Shown piece after piece: positions 2,528 through 40,982 of a stretch of 64,000 nt of DNA. The notes below the pieces were generated by a model, which made no database searches, was not told where the DNA came from, and saw only the letters and a program-made list of their open reading frames with translations. Each line of letters begins with the position of its first letter. The first letter of the stretch is position 1. The stretch is from positions 64,001 to 128,000 of IMG/VR virus record IMGVR_UViG_3300031134_000001; one strand, 5' to 3'. The translations under genes and the position numbers were made by a program. Source of the DNA: a virus. Taxonomy: Duplodnaviria > Caudoviricetes.

Positions 2528-2992
2528 ATGAACTTCCTGCGCAACCTCTGGACCCGTATCAAATCGTTTTTCAGCAACCTGTTCGGCGGCAAGAAAGTCG
2601 AAGCTGAAGTCAAGGCTGAACCAGCTCCACTGACACCGGCTGCTAAGCGCTTCAACGCCGCTTACGAGAAAGCTGAGCAAATCGCTTTCAACCCTAAGTG
2701 GAGCAACGGCACTGGTTACTTCAACCATGCTGTTGAAGGTGAGCACGCACCAAAACTGGCTGTTGGTCAAATTGTTGCAAGCAAAGTCCCTGCCGCTGAC
2801 AACCGTCGTCTGATCATCGTCGGTACTGCAACTGGCAACGCCGTAATGTTTGAGCGTTACACCGACAGCGCTCAAACACTCGCAAGCAATGTGCCAGATG
2901 AGCTGCGCTCGTTCATCAGCAACCGCCTGTCGGCTGACGATGTAACGTTCCTGCTCAACGCTGGTAACGTACCAGTTAAAGCTGCAGCGTAA
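2528..2992 (+). CDS. early protein with N-terminal amphipathic helix (154 aa)
   Basis: AAGGA RBS. MNFLRNLWTRIKSFFSNLFGGKKV is clearly similar to the N-terminus of the 1654 gene. Confidence 0.8.
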   Translation: MNFLRNLWTRIKSFFSNLFGGKKVEAEVKAEPAPLTPAAKRFNAAYEKAEQIAFNPKWSNGTGYFNHAVEGEHAPKLAVGQIVASKVPAADNRRLIIVGTATGNAVMFERYTDSAQTLASNVPDELRSFISNRLSADDVTFLLNAGNVPVKAAA

Positions 2993-2997
2993 TACCG

Positions 2998-3021
2998 AAG
3001 AGGGGGATCGCCCCCTCTTTT
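2998..3021 (+). terminator. intrinsic terminator-like hairpin
   Basis: AAGAGGGGG-ATCG-CCCCCTCTT followed by TT. Confidence 0.65.
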
Positions 3022-12309: not shown

Positions 12310-13037
12310 TACCGACATGGATATAGCCATCATCGGCGGCGGTGGTGGATGGTTAGGAACCGCTCTTATAAGAGCACTCTGTGGCGGCTTGGGTCGGACA
12401 GTAGAGATCGTGAAGCTTTGTGACTGGGTAAACAAATGGTCGTTTACTCATCAACATGAAGTCATGTACGGTCTATGCAATTATGAGAGCGGGGTTTACG
12501 GCGCGGGTTGCATAACCCCGTCACATCACGTTCAACAGCCCGAGCGGGCACTGGCACACAGTAAGGGTCTGTGTAAGCCTGTGATTGTCTCCGCCAACGG
12601 CCAAAGATAATGTGAACAAAATAAACCTCCGGTTATTAATAGCGCAAGTTTACGGGACTTGTAGCTAAACTTATCCCATTTAGATAAGTTTTCGAACCAT
12701 CCAAGCCTATCCGCTGCGCGCGGTATTAAGCGTCTGCCCGACGTTTGTCTGAGTCCGCAACATCGAAGACGCTTTCCTTTTACACCGCCAGCACATTGAT
12801 TCATGAATCAACAGTGTTGTGTTAGGTGATCTGCGGAGGTTGTCCTAGAACCGGATGATCGGACGTTAAACGAAGTAAACTTGGGGGCGGGACGAGCGAA
12901 GCTTTGCGAAGAGAATCACTCAGGCATGAGTGGGCGAAAATCTCTTTGCCAGCATTAGAACTCCCTTCCCCCCATTTCATCCCACTTACCTAACCGTTCT
13001 CTTCGGAGAATAATTAGGTAAGTGGATTCATTTTTTT
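12310..13037 (+). ncRNA. putative large structured non-coding RNA, family unknown
   Basis: ~720 nt with no typical phage ORF; at least 12 helices, including long-range pairs 12346-54/12695-703 and 12624-31/12834-41; ends in a long hairpin plus T7. Strand inferred from the terminator. Confidence 0.6.
12982..13037 (+). terminator. intrinsic terminator closing the structured region
   Basis: CCACTTACCTAA...TTCTC-TTCG-GAGAA...TTAGGTAAGTGG followed by ATTCAT7. Confidence 0.7.
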
Positions 13038-13111
13038 ATGCCGCCACAGTGAAATATCACAGTAGGTAAAAACGCACTAGAAACGCTTCTAAGCGTTATT
13101 TTACTTGGCGG

Positions 13112-15746: not shown

Positions 15747-16326
15747 GTATCCGCCTCCGTCAGTAGAAACGCCTTTGCAGATCAAGTACCCGGACTACTA
15801 CATTTTGAAGATTGACGACATCGTCGACGACTTCATCAAGCAGTGGGATTTCATCATCACCACCGAAATCATGGAGCATCCGATTGACTCGGATGTGGTG
15901 CTGCCTGAAGTGTACACCATCGGTCAAGATGGCACGCTGCACAAAACCGTGTACTTCGCCCAGCACGTATCCGAACGCGTCAAGCCTTGGCATCCAGACA
16001 TCAGCATTATTCTGGCAGCCACGATCGAGACCATCAAGGCCAAGAACGAAGCAGAAACAGACATGGATCTTGTCATGGGGTCGCTCTGGGTGGACGTAGC
16101 GTACATGGCCGATATTCATATTCGCTCGAACGTGGGTGAACTCCACGTGAACAGAGCCATCACCGGCGCACGGCGAGCTATCGCAAAGCTCTCTACCCAA
16201 TTCGGCAAGAAAATCTATCAACGACTCATCGAGTACGGCTTGTACAAACAAGGCTACTTCCCGTACCACTATGTCGGTTGGGAAGACGAATGCGCGATCG
16301 TTGCGCTCGATGACACACACAGGTGA
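15712..16326 (+). CDS. hypothetical protein, paralog family member 2 (204 aa)
   Basis: C-terminal LIEYGLYKQGYFPY motif. Confidence 0.75.
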   Translation: MKLTPYDRLGVEYPPPSVETPLQIKYPDYYILKIDDIVDDFIKQWDFIITTEIMEHPIDSDVVLPEVYTIGQDGTLHKTVYFAQHVSERVKPWHPDISIILAATIETIKAKNEAETDMDLVMGSLWVDVAYMADIHIRSNVGELHVNRAITGARRAIAKLSTQFGKKIYQRLIEYGLYKQGYFPYHYVGWEDECAIVALDDTHR

Positions 16327-16329
16327 ACT

Positions 16330-16692
16330 ATGGTAATAACCGATCAAATAACCATCTTAGATACGATGGAACTTGTGGTCGATTTCGAGCAGAAGTTAGG
16401 CTACGAACTCACGCCTGAAGATCGTCTGGAAATCTTTCATCAGATTTTCCTGATGATCAATCAGCACAGTGCGTTGGACCTGGACGACAAGGACGTTTTG
16501 GACTACGACTCGCTTGTGTTCGCCAATTATCTGAACGTGGACCACGCTGCTGTTGATCGGATTGCCTACAACCTGATGGTGAAGGTGTGGCACCTTTGTC
16601 ATCAGCGTGGCTTTTATATCAATGGCGAATTGCGCTACATGCCCTTTGCCATGCATGGCTGGGACTTGTCGGTTCGCTATTACCAGAACTAA
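16330..16692 (+). CDS. hypothetical protein, paralog family member 3 (120 aa)
   Basis: AGGTGA RBS; C-terminal CHQRGFYINGELRY motif. Confidence 0.75.
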   Translation: MVITDQITILDTMELVVDFEQKLGYELTPEDRLEIFHQIFLMINQHSALDLDDKDVLDYDSLVFANYLNVDHAAVDRIAYNLMVKVWHLCHQRGFYINGELRYMPFAMHGWDLSVRYYQN

Positions 16693-16707
16693 CAGAGGAG
16701 TCCGGTA

Positions 16708-17124
16708 ATGAATTTAGATGTCGGCGGTACGTATAGCTTTGCAGTGTACCCAGTAGCTGTGTTGGGTACCAATTTCAAGAACGTGTTGGTGTTGTCGATC
16801 TTAAGCGCTGCCACGGCGCAAGCGCTGGGTGAAGACATCTTCGCTCGCCACGCGTTGATCTCGCCATCCCTGCCAGATACGACGCAAAAGAAAGATCCCA
16901 GCAAATACAAGTACGTGCAGATCAAACTGCCATCAGGTGCTGAGCAAATCATCGCCATGGAATGGATCAACACGGCCACGATCCAATCGGTGAACTTGGG
17001 TCGCCATACTGTCATCATCGACAACAGTCCAAGCAGCGAACGGCAAAAGATCCTGGACGCATTGGCTGCCAACGGTATCAACGTGTCGGAGATCGATTTC
17101 CAGTCGGCTACGATGCAGGCGTAA
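16708..17124 (+). CDS. conserved phiKZ-like hypothetical protein (138 aa)
   Basis: GAGGAG RBS; beta-rich; immediately upstream of the DNA polymerase as in phiKZ-like gene order. Confidence 0.75.
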   Translation: MNLDVGGTYSFAVYPVAVLGTNFKNVLVLSILSAATAQALGEDIFARHALISPSLPDTTQKKDPSKYKYVQIKLPSGAEQIIAMEWINTATIQSVNLGRHTVIIDNSPSSERQKILDALAANGINVSEIDFQSATMQA

Positions 17125-17154
17125 TCGTTTTTTATCCGCGATACGTATAAAGTG

Positions 17155-17520
17155 CAAGAGAGGGACTCACACATCCTCGACGCAAATCGCCGGGACCTGG
17201 CCTAGCGGTTTGTTACACTCTGTTTGCGACGGAGTGGTGTGTTGTGCGGCGCTGCCGAGAAACATGGAGGTGTGGCGTAAGGTGACGCGAAGTGGCGGAG
17301 ACGTAAAGCCATTAAGTTGTTGATCTTGCTTTTACCTTTTTGGGCAATTGATCCGATGGATGTGGCGTGTAGTCTTGCCATTAGCATTTCCTTGATATCG
17401 GCAGCGCTGTGCTTTCTTTTGTGGCTAGGTAAGCGCAAAGGGACTTTTTGAAGTTGTGAATCCCCTCTTGAGCGAGGGCGTTTTGGCGATCGGGTACCTT
17501 CGGGTGCTCGATCGTTCTTT
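17155..17520 (+). ncRNA. putative structured RNA or small-peptide mRNA with a 5'-3' closing helix
   Basis: 17155-71 pairs with 17455-70; 17246-58 pairs with 17398-410; hairpin 17216-36; terminator 17488-17520. Confidence 0.55.
17356..17451 (+). CDS. possible 31-aa transmembrane peptide
   Basis: MDVACSLAISISLISAALCFLLWLGKRKGTF: hydrophobic core with a basic tail; no obvious RBS. Confidence 0.35.
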   Translation: MDVACSLAISISLISAALCFLLWLGKRKGTF

Positions 17521-17522
17521 TT
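17488..17522 (+). terminator. intrinsic terminator
   Basis: GATCGGGTACC-TTCG-GGTGCTCGATC followed by GTTCT6. Confidence 0.75.
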
Positions 17523-17597
17523 GCCGCCTGTTTATTTTTTTGGTCATTTTTGATCACCAGTTCTAATGATGTAGTTCGTAGCCATCAGGATGTCAAC

Positions 17598-19742
17598 ATG
17601 TCTCGTAATAGTCCGTTCATTTCCAAACCAGATGAGTATATCCGGGATATCAATCCGGTGAAACACATGGTGCACCAACAAGCAACCCACCTGTCGATCA
17701 TGGGTGGTATCTCGTACGAAGAAGCTTGTGAGTTTGTAAAGCATCAACTCGGACCCCAAGGTGAATTTCCCTTGCAAGATCCGAATGCCATTTTCCTAGA
17801 GCGTGATTTCGACTCAGGTGACCGGGAAGAATCTTCCATTCCCATGTCGAAGTATATCGGCGAGATCTTACAACAAGAACAGATCTACGCCCCCACGTTC
17901 ACGACGTACCACAATCCCAAGGTACGCCTGTCACCGCTGTCGAAGTTCCAAGACGATAACGTCAAGAGCCGCGGTAAAGCCAAGAAGGCAATGTTCGTAG
18001 CAGAACAAGAAGAAGGTAAGTCAAGCTTTAACTATCAGTTCTACAAAGGCTCGCAGACCACAGAGAAGTTGGCTAACAACGCCGTCTCTGGCGCCATGGT
18101 CAGTGAGTACAATCCGCTGCACAACAAGACCGGCCACAGTTCCTTAACGTCTTCGTGTCGTCAGACGTCGGCGTATGGTAACGCCAACAACGAACGGTTC
18201 CTGGCCAGCAACCGCCATTACTGGTCGTATGACACAGCACGCCAGAACATCGTCTCGATCGTCGCCCATACGGACATGGCTGCGGTTGAACGGGTAATGA
18301 CGCAGTACAATCTGCACTACCCAACGCAGGACGAAACATATCAAGTCGTGTGCCGTTCAGCCAAGCTGTACTGGAACTCGGCCAATGCTTACCAGAAGAT
18401 CCGGCAACTGATCGATCGCTTGACACCACTGCAGCGTGCTGCGTTTGTCTACACTGGCGATATGTATCAGCTGAAAGAATTTAACGAACCGTTCGTTCGC
18501 GAATTCATGTCGCGGTTAATCCACAAAGTTGATATTGCGGACCCGACACCAGAAGCCACAATTAAGAAGTGGCCAGAAGACTTCCTGAACTTGGCTAAAC
18601 AGCTGCAGCCTGAAATCACCAAAGGTAAGTCGCTTAACGAGATCATCAAGAACGATCCTCACGGCTATGGACTGGTTGCTGCGCAAGTAGAATACATCGC
18701 GCAGACGCTCTGGTCTTACTCGGACATGATCCGTGTGTTTTGGGCTACAGACAACCTACCTGCTTCGATCGCCATGTTCCCTAGTTCGCTGCGCCGTGTG
18801 GTGCTCGTGTCAGATACGGACTCGACGATCTTTACCACGCAAGACTGGATCATCTGGTATTGCAAACAGGTCAAGTTCGATGCCACGTACGATGCGATTA
18901 CTGCCAGCATGATTTTCTTGGCATCGCAATCGATCGTGCACATTCTGGCCAAGATGTCGGTTAACGTGGGCATTGGTCGCGACCATGCGTTCACGATTGA
19001 GATGAAGAACGAGTATAAGTTCGACGTCTTTGCATTGACGCAGCTGGGCAAGCACTACTATGCTCAGATCAGCTGTCAAGAAGGTAATATCAAGAAACAG
19101 TTGGAGAAAGAGATCAAGGGCGTTCACTTGAAGTCTTCCAACGCGCCGAAACAGATTGTCAAACAAGCCGAACAAATGATGCTCTCCATCATGGACGACA
19201 TCATGACTCGCGGTACGATCAAAGCGCACAAGTATCTGAAAGAGGTCGCTGACCTTGAACGCTCGATTGTTGAATCGATCCGTAAGGGTGAGTTTAAGTT
19301 CCTGAAGCTAAGCACCGTTAAGGATGCTGCGGCTTACAAGAATGGTGCTGAGACGTCCACGTACAAGCAGTACGGCATGTGGAACGGTGTGTTCGGTAAC
19401 AAGTACGGTCCGATCGCTCCGCCGCCTTACAAGGCCATCTACATCAGCTTGGGGCTCGATAGCAAAACCAAGACCAACAACTGGTTAGAACAAATGCCTG
19501 ACCAAGATGTCGCTGGTAACATGCGTCGCTGGTTGGGAGAAAACGCCCGTGACAAGATTCCTTCCTTGCAGTTACCGCTTGTGATCGTATCGTCCAAAGG
19601 TATTCCGGACGAAATCATGGCAGCAATCGATGTACGCAAGATTGTGCAGAAAGCCTCTGCAATGTTTTACCTTATCTTAGAAACACTCGGCTTTTACTTC
19701 AATCACGATGACTTGAGCCAATTGGCCATGGACTACTACTGA
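17598..19742 (+). CDS. family-B DNA polymerase, polymerase-domain subunit (phiKZ gp50-like)
   Basis: KLANNAVSG (region III KxxxN) and VSDTDSTIF (region I DTDS). ATG 17598 preferred over the track TTG at 17550. Confidence 0.85.
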   Translation: MSRNSPFISKPDEYIRDINPVKHMVHQQATHLSIMGGISYEEACEFVKHQLGPQGEFPLQDPNAIFLERDFDSGDREESSIPMSKYIGEILQQEQIYAPTFTTYHNPKVRLSPLSKFQDDNVKSRGKAKKAMFVAEQEEGKSSFNYQFYKGSQTTEKLANNAVSGAMVSEYNPLHNKTGHSSLTSSCRQTSAYGNANNERFLASNRHYWSYDTARQNIVSIVAHTDMAAVERVMTQYNLHYPTQDETYQVVCRSAKLYWNSANAYQKIRQLIDRLTPLQRAAFVYTGDMYQLKEFNEPFVREFMSRLIHKVDIADPTPEATIKKWPEDFLNLAKQLQPEITKGKSLNEIIKNDPHGYGLVAAQVEYIAQTLWSYSDMIRVFWATDNLPASIAMFPSSLRRVVLVSDTDSTIFTTQDWIIWYCKQVKFDATYDAITASMIFLASQSIVHILAKMSVNVGIGRDHAFTIEMKNEYKFDVFALTQLGKHYYAQISCQEGNIKKQLEKEIKGVHLKSSNAPKQIVKQAEQMMLSIMDDIMTRGTIKAHKYLKEVADLERSIVESIRKGEFKFLKLSTVKDAAAYKNGAETSTYKQYGMWNGVFGNKYGPIAPPPYKAIYISLGLDSKTKTNNWLEQMPDQDVAGNMRRWLGENARDKIPSLQLPLVIVSSKGIPDEIMAAIDVRKIVQKASAMFYLILETLGFYFNHDDLSQLAMDYY

Positions 19743-24618: not shown

Positions 24619-24652
24619 AAAGTGGAGCCCCGCAAGGGCTTCACTTTTTTTT
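24619..24652 (+). terminator. intrinsic terminator after chimallin
   Basis: AAAGTGGAGCCC-CGCAA-GGGCTTCACTTT followed by a T-tract. Confidence 0.85.
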
Positions 24653-24710
24653 CTTTACTACGAGAAGAAAAGTAGCAGTAGTTTATTGTTCCCTTCCAGA
24701 GGAGTGTATC

Positions 24711-38852: not shown

Positions 38853-40982
38853 ATGCCTACAGTATTAAAACGTTACGATGCTCGTTATTTTCTGCGCTTT
38901 GATCCAGAAGATCTTTGGAACTGGATCACAGGCCCGTTTATTCTCGTGATGGATGATAAGGAGGAGATTGAAACCAACCACGTAGAGACTTGCTACAGCA
39001 GCTACGCGTGGGACTTCCACCGTAAGTATCCCAACACCCCGCTCTTGGCTGAGCACCACATCCGCGGTATTTTGAAGTGGGACAAGAAGACCGGCATCGC
39101 TGGTCGCTTGTCAATCGGCGCTGATCTGGAACTGTTCGGCAACTGCATGATGTCGAGCTGGGAAGCGTACTTTCGCACGCCAGAGAAGATCAACCGCGTA
39201 ACACTCTGGCGCGACATGGCCGAAGCAATGAACCGGCATTACTGTCACTTCATCAAGTTCGCCGATCGTTACGTGGGTACGCTGGACATTCTGCACTTCC
39301 ATGAAGCAATGGACGATGAAGAGATCTACGCAGCGAACTTGGCAGTGCAACGTGGGGAAATCCAGATCCACGAAGTCTACGCCATCATCGACCGGGTCTT
39401 TAAGAAATCCAAGCGTTTGATGCACAACCCACTCGTGCGCGAGTATCGCTCCAAGCTGCTCAAGCAAACCCAGGTGCACCAGAACATCGGACCACGTGGG
39501 CGGCCTACCGACATGAACTCACGCATCTTCGGCCACACCATCTTGACCGGGTATGTCGAGGGGATTAACCGGATTGCTGAGTCGGCCATTGAAACACGCT
39601 CGGCAGCACGCGCTTCGTACTACGCGGCGGAATCGCTGCGCATGTCCGAGTACTTCTCGCGCAAGTTGCAGTTTGTCTCGCAAAACGTGTGCAACATCCA
39701 CCAGGACTGCGATTGCGGTTCGACCAAGTATCTGGAATGGAAGGTGCGTGACCGTAAGATCGATGAGCAAGGTGATGAAGTTCGGCCAAGCGATCTGATT
39801 TTACTTAACGGTAAGTACTATCTTAATGAGAGGACCGGCGCATTAGAGCCGATCCGGCCTGACTCGTTCCATCTGCTCGGTCAAACCGTGCGGGTACGCT
39901 CGACGTTGTATTGTGCGCATCCCGATCCTGTCGGCGTGTGCTCAACATGTTTCGGTGAATTGGCGTTTAACGTGCCACCTGAAGCGAACATCGGGCAGTG
40001 GTGCGCAACAACGATGGCAGAGCAAGCAACACAGGCTCTGTTGTCCGCGAAGCATTTGGAGCGTTCTAGCGCGTTGGAGCGGATCGAGATCGATCCACGC
40101 TGGACGAACTATATCGCAGGCGGGCTGAACAATTCGTCGTATGTGCTGTCCAAAGCCATCGAAGACAAAGACGTGAGCATCATCTTGCTGCGTAGTCAGG
40201 TTGAAAGCCTGCACGACATCAAGAGCGTCGAAGACATCGAAGAGCATCCGGAAGAGCACTACAGCGAACTGACCATGCTCAACATCAAGATCGCCGAAGG
40301 GTTGGATACCCCGATGGTGCCTACCCCTGGCAGCAAGAACAAGGTTGTTGGTGGTGGCGGCATTGTGGGTGTCGAAGTGGGTACGGCTGGTAGCCGGGAA
40401 GCTAGTTTGTCGTACGAGATGCTGAACTACATCCGTGAACATGGCTACCGGACTGTGTCGTTGTCGGAAGGTCAGGTTCGTGCGGGTCAACGCAATGAAG
40501 ACCGCTACGAAATCGACATGGTGAACTGGAACTGGGATGATCCTATCCTGGTGATGCCGGCCAAACACTTCAACAACTCCGACCACGTGGATCAAGTGGC
40601 GCGCCGACTGGAGTCGCGTGTGGAAGAGATGCGCAAACGATCGCGTATCGACACTGCCGATAAAATGGTCTTGGACTTGTTTAACTTCGTGAACATGAAG
40701 CTGAACGTGAACTTGTCGTGCTTGGAAGTTATCTTGTACGCCACCATGATCATCTCGGCAGAGGACAACGACTACAGTCTGCCAAAACCGTGGACCACAT
40801 CGCAACCGTCGGTGTTGTCCATGACGATGAAGGGACGGAGTTTGTCGGTGTTGATGGCCTTCGAGAAGCAGTACGAAGCGCTGATCGATCCGAGCAGCTT
40901 CATCCACACCAATCGTTTGAACCATCTGTTTGACGGCATCTACACGCCAACTCACGTATATGGACAAACACAACTAGAATGA
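38853..40982 (+). CDS. non-virion RNA polymerase beta' C-terminal subunit (phiKZ gp74-like)
   Basis: Bridge-helix-like SEYFSRKL, DCGS, RSTLYC...CSTCFG zinc site, trigger-loop-like IGQWCATTMAEQATQ. Confidence 0.85.
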   Translation: MPTVLKRYDARYFLRFDPEDLWNWITGPFILVMDDKEEIETNHVETCYSSYAWDFHRKYPNTPLLAEHHIRGILKWDKKTGIAGRLSIGADLELFGNCMMSSWEAYFRTPEKINRVTLWRDMAEAMNRHYCHFIKFADRYVGTLDILHFHEAMDDEEIYAANLAVQRGEIQIHEVYAIIDRVFKKSKRLMHNPLVREYRSKLLKQTQVHQNIGPRGRPTDMNSRIFGHTILTGYVEGINRIAESAIETRSAARASYYAAESLRMSEYFSRKLQFVSQNVCNIHQDCDCGSTKYLEWKVRDRKIDEQGDEVRPSDLILLNGKYYLNERTGALEPIRPDSFHLLGQTVRVRSTLYCAHPDPVGVCSTCFGELAFNVPPEANIGQWCATTMAEQATQALLSAKHLERSSALERIEIDPRWTNYIAGGLNNSSYVLSKAIEDKDVSIILLRSQVESLHDIKSVEDIEEHPEEHYSELTMLNIKIAEGLDTPMVPTPGSKNKVVGGGGIVGVEVGTAGSREASLSYEMLNYIREHGYRTVSLSEGQVRAGQRNEDRYEIDMVNWNWDDPILVMPAKHFNNSDHVDQVARRLESRVEEMRKRSRIDTADKMVLDLFNFVNMKLNVNLSCLEVILYATMIISAEDNDYSLPKPWTTSQPSVLSMTMKGRSLSVLMAFEKQYEALIDPSSFIHTNRLNHLFDGIYTPTHVYGQTQLE

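What the first reader, a model, noticed from the sequence alone, without database searches (positions are those of the whole stretch)
17155..17520. 5'-3' closed ~320-nt RNA encoding a small transmembrane peptide: type I toxin-like architecture
CAAGAGAGGGACTCACA (17155-71) pairs with TGTGAATCCCCTCTTG (17455-70). GCGGCGCTGCCGA (17246-58) pairs with TCGGCAGCGCTGT (17398-410), which lies inside the ORF MDVACSLAISISLISAALCFLLWLGKRKGTF (17356-17451). The frame is open back to 17281 and adds a second hydrophobic stretch (KLLILLLPFWAI, possible TTG start). A local hairpin at 17463-77 competes with the closing stem, and a strong terminator follows. Long-range sequestration plus a short TM peptide with a basic tail resembles hok/ldr/aapA-type toxin mRNAs. 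It could be a timed membrane effector, or a standalone ncRNA regulating the downstream DNA polymerase (inference).
Basis: partly seen in the sequence, partly recalled or inferred. Interest (0 to 1): 0.7.

Follow-up and report, generated by a model that had tools for sequence, protein, structure and literature searches.

The report
New structured RNA before jumbo-phage polymerase
The gap between a baseplate gene and the DNA polymerase gene of this uncultured phiKZ-like giant phage encodes a conserved, heavily folded non-coding RNA of about 300-360 bases that matches no known RNA family and is found on its own in environmental RNA samples; it is not a toxin gene, and its job is unknown.

Summary
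The interpretation as a type I toxin mRNA fails. The 31/44-aa ORF is not conserved: the two closest relatives have a stop after 4 codons, the others have no start, and there is no RBS.

The region is a single-copy gene for a structured non-coding RNA on the + strand. It has a conserved promoter-like motif (17128-17152) and a phiKZ-type terminator (17485-17528). Eight distinct homologues exist, all between the gp49-like SH3 gene and the DNAP-C polymerase gene of one clade of uncultured Chimalliviridae-like jumbo phages.

The core domain (17239-17417) is strongly supported by covariation: 90.6% of cells are paired, 33 of 47 pairs show compensatory changes, and 0 of 500 shuffles reach that. A local 5' hairpin is conserved instead.

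Four metatranscriptomes from four studies contain short contigs covering only 17161-17456 and none of the flanking genes, so it exists as a discrete RNA. Rfam gives no match. No conserved antiterminator was found. Function is unknown; I infer a trans-acting folded RNA linked to the replication module. This scan has noted other new jumbo-phage RNAs, but not this one on other DNA.

The parts
17128..17152 (+). Promoter-like motif: T-run followed by ATCCG, about 7 nt, then ACGTATAAAG
   Evidence: Nearly invariant in the 5 closest relatives. The same motif occurs once more in the 271-kb genome, 20 nt before a protein gene start. RNA contigs begin 9-12 nt after its TATAAAG.
17159..17528 (+). Predicted primary transcript of the ncRNA (about 365 nt), from promoter to end of terminator tail
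   Evidence: Inferred from the promoter motif and terminator. The + strand is indicated by many G-U pairs in covarying helices and by the fold z-scores.
17161..17456 (+). Part present as whole short contigs in 4 metatranscriptomes; possibly the mature form
   Evidence: contigs of 151-284 nt, 95-99% identical, from 4 runs and 4 studies. Flanking genes have zero cover. Three contigs start at 17161/17164. Ends fall at 17444 (two studies), 17456 and 17402.
17160..17178 (+). P1, local 5' hairpin (GAGGG/UCCUC) with a CACA-containing loop
   Evidence: Forms in all 7 sequences folded, with different stem sequences. L098 has the same hairpin by eye.
17185..17210 (+). P2 hairpin carrying the near-invariant GGGACCUGGCC (17192-17202)
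   Evidence: RNAalifold on A1, with compensatory pairs in the outer stem.
17216..17236 (+). P3 hairpin with conserved loop UUUGCGA
   Evidence: RNAalifold on A1.
17242..17414 (+).
   Evidence: 16 of 18 P4 pairs show changes on both sides and 92.9% of cells pair. Model R1 finds held-out L098 at 100.6 bits.
17263..17394 (+). P5 (17263-72 with 17385-94), enclosing P5a, P5b and P6
   Evidence: 7 of 10 pairs compensatory. P5b (17291-95 with 17378-82) appears only in the A1 consensus.
17275..17288 (+). P5a hairpin with conserved purine loop UA(G)AGGUGR, which resembles a Shine-Dalgarno sequence
   Evidence: helix 3. The loop sequence is conserved in all 8.
17308..17363 (+). P6 stem-loop: GAUC...GAUC helix, inner stem, pyrimidine-rich loop (17329-17343), then UUGAUCCG (17348-55), invariant in 7 of 8 (L098 reads UUGAUCGG)
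   Evidence: 9 of 15 pairs compensatory. Similar pyrimidine-loop hairpins are enriched upstream of pol in distant loci.
17356..17451 (+).
   Evidence: The homologous frame stops after 4 codons in L001 and L002 and has no start in L003-L005. No shared peptide among relatives.
17455..17478 (+). 3' arm of the window-specific closing stem, the conserved GUGAAUCC-type motif (17456-63) and the small hairpin 17463-78
   Evidence: The segment pairing with 17155-60 is an insertion absent from relatives.
17485..17528 (+). Intrinsic terminator: 14-bp stem, UUCG loop, tail CUUUUUGCCGCC
   Evidence: The stem covaries in relatives. The tail matches the phiKZ terminator motif (hairpin followed by YTTATKYYGT) of PMC10914365.
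17531..17574 (+). Second promoter-like element (T-run ... AAUGAUGUAG) in front of the polymerase gene
   Evidence: Conserved in relatives. Similar T-run followed by (A/C)(A/T)GTAG elements follow other terminators in this genome.
16708..17124 (+). Upstream neighbour: SH3-fold protein (PF20287), homologue of phiKZ gp49
   Evidence: PDB 9XQS chain M at E = 1e-19; a baseplate ring protein according to PMC13250141.
17598..19742 (+). Downstream neighbour: divergent family B DNA polymerase (PF20286), counterpart of phiKZ gp50 (DNAP-C)

Best explanation
Window 17128-17528 is a single-copy gene for a structured non-coding RNA of a clade of uncultured phiKZ-like (Chimalliviridae-type) jumbo phages.

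Shown:
- It has a conserved promoter-like motif and a phiKZ-type intrinsic terminator.
- The + strand folds into three 5' hairpins plus a multi-branched core closed by a 16-18-bp long-range helix, and these helices are maintained by compensatory mutations in 8 homologues.
- It carries no conserved ORF.
- It occurs in environmental RNA as a discrete species without its flanking genes.

Inferred:
- It is transcribed from its own promoter starting near 17159-17161 and is possibly trimmed at the 3' end near 17445-17456.
- It acts as a folded RNA in trans rather than as an mRNA or a conditional attenuator.
- Its conserved unpaired elements are the likely contact points for a protein, ribosome or mRNA partner. 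These are the purine AGGUG loop of P5a, the pyrimidine-rich P6 loop, GGGACCUGGCC and UUGAUCCG.
- Its fixed place in front of the DNAP-C polymerase gene suggests a role tied to expression or function of the replication module.

I put about 0.3 on the translation/RBS-directed version of that role. The rest is open.
For: - Structure: + strand z = -5.8. RNAalifold on 6 sequences gives 83 pairs, 43 with compensatory changes. The core domain on 8 sequences has 90.6% of cells paired against 27-45% for slid controls, 33 of 47 pairs compensatory, and 0 of 500 shuffles as high. L098 was not used to build the model, scores 100.6 bits and fits the structure.
- Not coding: no conserved ORF.
- Transcription unit: the conserved upstream motif is reused before a protein gene elsewhere in the genome. 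The terminator is of the phiKZ type.
- Expression: whole short contigs from 4 metatranscriptomes in 4 studies cover 17161-17456 only, with zero cover on 450 nt upstream and 740 nt downstream. This argues against DNA carry-over.
- Copy number: one copy per genome in two complete and three partial genomes.
- Not conditional: no upstream partner for the terminator arm is conserved in position, and energies are mostly no better than shuffled arms. A second promoter-like element lies between the terminator and pol.
- Not a known family: no Rfam match at E <= 10 in the window or E <= 1 in relatives.
Against: - Only 8 related sequences from one clade were available. The shuffle control does not remove phylogenetic signal.
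- The RNA data are assembled contigs. Strand, exact ends and abundance are therefore not established, and the promoter is inferred from conservation only.
- The upstream SH3 gene has no terminator of its own here, so the RNA could also arise by processing of a read-through transcript.
- Nothing tested here identifies a partner. Pairing of the P6 loop to this phage's own pol start region is weak (-4.3 kcal/mol).
- P5a-P6 loop pairing shows no specific covariation.
Confidence: 0.75

Rival explanations
1. Cis-acting leader of the DNA polymerase (DNAP-C) gene. Transcription starts at 17159, most transcripts stop at the terminator, and a fraction reads through. The structured leader would control pol transcription or translation, as in the 5'UTR-derived RNAs made by premature termination in phiKZ.
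For: - The RNA, or an analogous promoter-to-terminator unit, always sits directly upstream of pol: 34 of 79 distant pol loci have a gap of 350 nt or more to the upstream same-strand ORF (>=80 codons, stop to stop).
- phiKZ makes many such short RNAs by premature termination (PMC10914365).
- In several distant clades the pyrimidine loop is complementary to that phage's own pol start region. L019 has an 11-bp match at -17.4 kcal/mol. Matched pairs beat mismatched pairs with permutation p = 0.013.
Against: - No conserved antiterminator was found.
- The terminator is very strong (14 bp plus a U-run).
- A conserved second promoter-like element separates it from pol.
- No RNA contig links the RNA to pol.
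- Loop-to-pol pairing is absent in the window clade.
Confidence: 0.15
2. Processed 3'UTR of the upstream late (baseplate SH3 protein) operon. On this reading there is no promoter of its own, and the stable structured part survives after cleavage near 17160.
For: There is no terminator between the SH3 gene stop (17124) and the RNA. phiKZ has 3'UTR-derived RNA candidates. RNA contigs cannot distinguish a transcription start from a processing site.
Against: The 30 nt upstream of the RNA are more conserved than the RNA itself. The same motif precedes a protein gene elsewhere, right after that gene's upstream terminator. Distant loci have a terminator after the SH3 gene and still carry the T-run/TATA-like motif.
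Confidence: 0.07
3. Type I toxin mRNA: a folded mRNA that sequesters and times translation of a small membrane peptide.
For: In this one sequence a 31/44-aa hydrophobic ORF with a basic tail lies inside a fold-back RNA that has a 15-bp 5'-3' stem.
Against: The ORF is broken or absent in all relatives, while the RNA helices crossing it covary. There is no SD before ATG 17356. The closing stem is not conserved. No promoter-like site lies on the - strand within the element; the only - strand site in 16000-19000 is at 17662-17635, inside pol, by a sigma-70-type scan that does not cover phage promoters. No hok/ldr/aapA-type Rfam match.
Confidence: 0.02

Closest known systems
Short intergenic and 5'UTR-derived ncRNA candidates of phiKZ (Grad-seq, dRNA-seq and ONT-cappable-seq; PMC10914365, PMC8244752)
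   Same: Encoded by a phiKZ-like phage. Bounded by a phage promoter and a hairpin-plus-TTAT-type terminator just upstream of a gene. Seen as a discrete RNA. Function unknown.
   Different: Those RNAs are 70-200 nt and were defined experimentally in phiKZ without covariation models. This RNA is about 300-360 nt with a multi-helix core. The corresponding phiKZ gap (gp49-gp50) is only 201 nt, too short to hold an RNA of this size.
Type I toxin mRNAs (hok/sok, ldr/rdl, aapA/isoA)
   Same: In this single sequence: a long-range 5'-3' stem, an internal short hydrophobic ORF and a 3' terminator.
   Different: No conserved ORF, no RBS, no detected antisense RNA, the closing stem is not conserved, and no family model matches.
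Large ornate RNAs of phages and prophages (GOLLD RF01998, ROOL, HEARO, raiA)
   Same: Phage-borne, complex multi-helix fold kept by covariation, own transcription unit, unknown biochemical role.
   Different: About half their size or less, no Rfam match, not next to tRNA genes, and restricted so far to one clade of nucleus-forming jumbo phages.
ColE1 RNA II and T4/T7 origin transcripts (RNA-primed initiation of replication)
   Same: A structured or promoter-defined transcript in the replication module of a replicon that needs an RNA primer. Chimalliviruses have RNase H but no known primase (PMC7824862, PMC13648687).
   Different: This RNA ends at a strong terminator rather than persisting as an R-loop. 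There is no GC-skew turning point at this locus and no evidence of hybrid formation.

Membership tests
Type I toxin-antitoxin mRNA (hok/ldr/aapA type) | Conserved short hydrophobic toxin ORF with a translation start signal | tested here: not met
   The frame stops after 4 codons in L001 and L002 and has no start in L003-L005. No shared peptide. No SD before 17356.
Type I toxin-antitoxin mRNA (hok/ldr/aapA type) | Conserved long-range 5'-3' pairing that locks the full-length mRNA | tested here: not met
   15/15 pairs in the window but 5-8/15 in relatives, with no compensatory change. The outer 6 bp sit in a window-only insertion.
Type I toxin-antitoxin mRNA (hok/ldr/aapA type) | Antisense RNA antitoxin with its own promoter | tested here: inconclusive
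   No promoter-like site on the - strand within 17155-17520; the only - strand site in the scanned 16000-19000 lies at 17662-17635, inside pol. The scan covers only sigma-70-type promoters, not phage RNAP promoters.
Type I toxin-antitoxin mRNA (hok/ldr/aapA type) | Match to a curated RNA family model | tested here: not met
   No Rfam hit at E <= 10 in 16000-19000 apart from a chance snoRNA match outside the element.
Any Rfam 15 family | Covariance-model match | tested here: not met
   Window and 9 related or analogous loci: nothing in the element.
phiKZ-type promoter-to-terminator short RNAs (5'UTR-derived ncRNA candidates) | Phage promoter upstream and a TSS at the RNA 5' end | tested here: inconclusive
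   A conserved promoter-like motif is reused before another gene. RNA contigs start 9-12 nt after it. No 5'-end chemistry is available.
phiKZ-type promoter-to-terminator short RNAs (5'UTR-derived ncRNA candidates) | Stem-loop terminator followed by a TTAT-type tail, upstream of the next gene | tested here: met
   14-bp hairpin plus a T-rich tail ending GCCG in the window, and a TTTTATGCCGT-type tail in relatives.
phiKZ-type promoter-to-terminator short RNAs (5'UTR-derived ncRNA candidates) | Discrete RNA species more abundant than the downstream mRNA | tested here: met
   RNA-only contigs in 4 metatranscriptomes with none on pol or the SH3 gene. These are contigs, so the evidence is qualitative.
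Riboswitch / transcription attenuator | Conserved alternative pairing (antiterminator) competing with the terminator | tested here: not met
   The best upstream partner of the terminator 5' arm lies at different places in each homologue, and is within about 1 sd of shuffled arms in 7 of 8 (L002 about 1.9 sd better).
Replication-origin primer RNA (ColE1 RNA II-like) | Origin at or next to the RNA gene | tested here: inconclusive
   Cumulative GC skew has no extremum near genome position 81 kb. The skew is weak throughout, so this is not decisive.

The most novel reading that the evidence does not exclude
The RNA belongs to the replication machinery of primase-less nucleus-forming phages. It could be a folded transcript that supplies or positions the RNA primer, with RNase H-clamp protein Rhc processing it. 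Alternatively it could act as an RNA cofactor or assembly scaffold for the split DNA polymerase whose DNAP-C gene it precedes.
Probability: 0.05. Interest if true: 0.9.

Novelty: new variant of a known kind. Interest (0 to 1): 0.6.

Why it matters
Nucleus-forming jumbo phages are a major model for viral compartmentalisation. Their RNA biology is barely charted: a 2026 review devotes one sentence to non-coding RNAs.

This RNA is covariation-supported, expressed and single-copy, with a complex fold, and it sits at a fixed place in the replication gene block. That makes it a concrete new RNA family to add to Rfam and to test.

Its conserved loops give direct handles for pull-down, antisense-oligomer knock-down and structure work. 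Because these phages have no known primase, any RNA tied to the polymerase locus deserves a look.

The case also shows that a plausible toxin-like ORF inside a folded RNA can be an accident of one sequence.

Tried and rejected
- blastn of the region against 50,697 phage records: no match. The nearest cultured polymerase is only 45% identical (Burkholderia phage FLC9).
- tRNA/tmRNA scan: none.
- Rfam on the window and on relatives: nothing.
- DNA-pattern scan of IMG/VR with two conserved RNA blocks: only the 5 contigs already found.
- Core model R1 against 82 more distant polymerase loci, with default filters and with filters off on 14 of them: no significant hit beyond L015. The best syntenic alignment was L032 at 9.5 bits, E = 0.25. 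Homology of the analogous units in distant clades, FLC9 included, is therefore not shown.
- MAFFT alignment of the P6 hairpins across clades (A4) was not structurally consistent, so no broad model was built.
- Fold z-scores of the distant units are heterogeneous, from -10 to about 0.
- Pairing of the whole RNA with its own pol start region: no consistent site.
- P5a-P6 kissing-loop covariation: not specific.
- Genome-wide targets of the P6 loop: only generic A-rich SD regions; the top hit has z about -3.8 among 1004 starts.
- Antiterminator search: negative.
- GC skew for an origin: uninformative.
- Intron idea (SH3 gene and pol as split exons): dropped. Both are complete genes with their own stop and start, and gp49 is a baseplate protein.
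- Literature searches found no description of this RNA. Supplements of PMC10914365 and of the 10,000-motif viral RNA catalogue PMC10690425 are not held, so I cannot exclude that the motif is listed there without a name.

Full report
**Context.** The window is part of a complete 271,026-bp virus record with direct terminal repeats. The genes around the finding are typical of phiKZ-like, nucleus-forming jumbo phages:
- an SH3-fold protein of family PF20287 at 16708-17124;
- a divergent family B DNA polymerase of family PF20286 at 17598-19742;
- a phiKZ-type internal head protein on the opposite strand.

The nearest cultured polymerase is only 45% identical (Burkholderia phage FLC9), and blastn finds no related phage record. 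The finding occupies the 473-nt gap between the SH3 gene and the polymerase gene.

**Checking the observation.**
- The minimum-energy fold of 17140-17530 contains both long-range helices, the small hairpin at 17463-78 and the terminator. Its energy is -165.3 kcal/mol with z = -5.8 against dinucleotide shuffles. The reverse strand gives z = -3.7.
- The terminator is a 14-bp stem with a UUCG loop and a U-run.
- The ORF 17356-17451 exists, and a TTG at 17317 extends it to 44 aa.

**Relatives.** The polymerase protein retrieved five IMG/VR contigs at 80-83% identity (L001-L005). A metagenome scan added L015 at 68%. A further scan added L098. All carry a homologous sequence in the same gap. There is one copy per genome in both complete genomes and in three partial ones.

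**The ORF is not conserved.** In L001 and L002, the two relatives closest in RNA sequence, the homologous ATG frame ends after four codons. L003-L005 have no start codon there. The longest ORFs of the eight sequences lie in different places and share no peptide. ATG 17356 directly follows the UUGAUCCG block (17348-55), which is invariant in seven of the eight sequences, and has no Shine-Dalgarno sequence. The helices that cross the ORF covary. Selection therefore acts on RNA pairing, not on the reading frame.

**The structure is conserved.**
- RNAalifold on six full-length sequences predicts 83 pairs, 43 of them with compensatory changes.
- I built a covariance model (R1) of the core domain, window 17239-17417, from seven sequences. 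It finds L098, which was not used to build it, at 100.6 bits.
- On the eight-sequence alignment, 90.6% of cells form standard pairs and 33 of 47 pairs change on both sides. None of 500 column shuffles reaches these values. Sliding the 3' partners by 1-3 columns drops pairing to 27-45%.
- Frequent G-U pairs in covarying positions fit the + strand only.

**The helices, in window coordinates.**
- P1: 17160-78.
- P2: 17185-210, carrying the near-invariant GGGACCUGGCC.
- P3: 17216-36, with loop UUUGCGA.
- P4: 17242-57 with 17399-414.
- P5: 17263-72 with 17385-94.
- P5a: 17275-88, with a conserved purine loop UA(G)AGGUGR.
- P6: 17308-63, with a pyrimidine-rich loop at 17329-43 followed by UUGAUCCG.
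- Then a variable region and the terminator.

**The closing stem.** In the alignment the relatives keep 5-8 of the 15 pairs, and none by compensatory change. The six outer pairs fall in a segment that only this window has. The 5' arm overlaps P1, a local hairpin that forms in each of the seven sequences folded, with different stem sequences. A short remnant (GGG...CAC with GUG...CCC) is alignable but hardly varies. A small long-range or pseudoknot contact therefore cannot be excluded, but the hok-like lock is not a family feature.

**Transcription signals.**
- The 30 nt before the RNA are more conserved than the RNA itself, reading TAATCSTTTTTTATYCG...CKTATWRARTGCAG.
- In the whole genome this motif recurs essentially once. 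It lies directly after a terminator and 20 nt before the ATG of a protein gene at genome position 231355. That is what one expects of a promoter.
- The terminator tail (TTTTATGCCGT in relatives) matches the terminator motif reported for phiKZ, a stem-loop followed by YTTATKYYGT (PMC10914365).
- Between the terminator and the polymerase start lies a second conserved element, a T-run followed by AAUGAUGUAG. Similar elements follow other terminators in this genome. The polymerase gene therefore probably has its own promoter.

**Expression.** Public-run indexes show four metatranscriptomes, three from phyllosphere and one from ice, each from a different study. The indexed words they hold (about 12 per run) match in number those found with the RNA alone, which suggested they all lie in the RNA; the contigs laid confirm it. 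Laying their contigs on 16700-18200 gave whole short contigs of 151-284 nt at 95-99% identity. They cover 17161-17456 and nothing on the SH3 or polymerase genes.
- The flanks serve as an internal silent control, so DNA carry-over is unlikely.
- Three contigs start at 17161/17164, which is 9-12 nt after the TATAAAG.
- Two studies end at 17444 and one at 17456.
- These are contigs, so strand, exact ends and level are not established. The shared stops are only a weak hint of a 3'-trimmed form.

**What it is not.**
- Rfam 15 has no match in the window at E <= 10 or in nine related or analogous loci at E <= 1.
- ARAGORN finds no tRNA or tmRNA.
- No conserved antiterminator exists. The best upstream partner of the terminator's 5' arm lies at a different place in every homologue and is, in seven of eight, no better than for shuffled arms. 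A riboswitch-like attenuator is therefore unlikely.
- Cumulative GC skew shows no turning point at this locus.

**Wider distribution (tentative).**
- Of 79 more distant polymerase loci (38-49% identity), 34 have at least 350 nt between the upstream same-strand ORF and pol.
- Many of these gaps show the same layout: a T-run/TATA-like motif, about 300 nt, a terminator, then a second T-run motif. FLC9 is among them.
- Model R1 does not detect them, even with filters off. Their fold z-scores range from -10 to about 0. Homology is not shown.
- One feature recurs: a hairpin whose loop is pyrimidine-rich with a UUCCUU-type core. It is found 120-400 nt upstream of pol in 26 of 82 loci, against 4.5 expected from the background rate in the same loci. 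I defined the motif after seeing part of these data; about ten of the hits were in loci I had not inspected first.
- This loop is complementary to AAGGAA-type ribosome-binding sites. Across 29 loci it pairs better with its own phage's pol start region than with those of other phages (mean -9.9 against -8.8 kcal/mol, permutation p = 0.013). L019, L026, L028, FLC9 and L044 give striking 9-11-bp matches.
- In the window clade this pairing is absent (-4.3 kcal/mol). The window's loop matches only generic A-rich SD regions genome-wide.
- phiKZ itself has only a 201-nt gap, with a short promoter-hairpin unit.

**Neighbours.**
- The upstream protein matches phiKZ gp49 in PDB entry 9XQS at E = 1e-19. 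The 2026 cryo-EM atlas places gp49 in a hexagonal ring of the baseplate (PMC13250141). The Pfam name, "associated with phage DNA polymerases", therefore reflects gene order and not a shown polymerase function.
- An antisense-oligomer screen found the gp49 gene to be important for plaque formation (PMC12571901).
- The downstream gene corresponds to gp50, the DNAP-C half of the split polymerase.
- Chimalliviruses have an RNase H-clamp protein but no identified primase (PMC13648687, PMC7824862).
- The RNA thus sits at the border between a structural gene and a replication gene.

**Mechanism.**
- Shown: a conserved fold, no conserved coding frame, and a discrete RNA in environmental samples. A promoter-like motif and a terminator are present in the sequence but their activity was not tested.
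- Inferred: it works as a folded RNA in trans. Its conserved unpaired blocks and its two loops, one resembling a Shine-Dalgarno sequence and one complementary to such sequences, are the likely contact surfaces.
- I rate a translation- or RBS-directed role as the single most likely function, at about 0.3. A cis leader role for pol gets about 0.15. Processing from the upstream operon as the route of biogenesis gets about 0.07. A role in priming or in the polymerase complex gets about 0.05.
- The toxin reading is at about 0.02.

**Novelty.** I found no description of this RNA in Rfam or in the searched literature. Two supplements that might list it are not held. Earlier notes of this scan report other new structured RNAs in jumbo phages, including one after phuZ in this same genome. 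They hold no other copy of this RNA.

Noticed in passing
window 16708-17124: The PF20287 protein, named 'SH3 fold domain associated with phage DNA polymerases', is a homologue of phiKZ gp49 (PDB 9XQS chain M, E = 1e-19). Cryo-EM places gp49 in a baseplate ring. The Pfam name therefore reflects synteny only, and the gene is probably a late structural gene next to a replication gene.
   Followed up: partly
G000:C1:231301-231360 (outside the window): Second and only other clear copy of the RNA's promoter-like motif (TTTTTTGATCCGGCAAACGTATTAG). It lies right after a terminator and about 20 nt before the ATG of a 192-aa ORF. These may form a small regulon with unusual timing.
   Followed up: partly
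L016, L017, L019, L022, L026, L032, L033, L044, L047, L051, L058 (about 300-450 nt before pol); L006 (FLC9) 2456-2991: Distant chimallivirus-like phages carry an analogous promoter-to-terminator unit of about 300 nt before pol. It has a purine-rich 5' end (GARRGGG) and a hairpin with a UUUCAUUUCCUUGUUU-like loop. Homology to the window's RNA is not detectable with the core model.
   Followed up: partly
L019 around 2740-2765 and 2977-3003: The pyrimidine loop UUUUUCCUAUG is complementary over 11 bp, with one bulge, to that phage's own pol ribosome-binding region CAUAGGAGAAAAA (-17.4 kcal/mol). L026, L028, FLC9 and L044 show similar matches. This suggests RBS targeting in those clades.
   Followed up: partly
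window 17531-17574; also window 13026-13065 and 24640-24675: A recurrent element, terminator T-run then about 20-28 nt then (A/C)(A/T)GTAG, lies in front of genes on the + strand. It is a candidate promoter class of this phage.
   Followed up: partly
L097 1878-2078 (phiKZ 40377-40577): The phiKZ gp49-gp50 gap holds a terminator, a T-rich promoter-like stretch and a short GGGUACCC hairpin followed by UUCUUUCCUUUUCUUUUUU. This may be a minimal counterpart of the unit described here.
   Followed up: no
Model R1 finds no similarity to it.
   Followed up: partly
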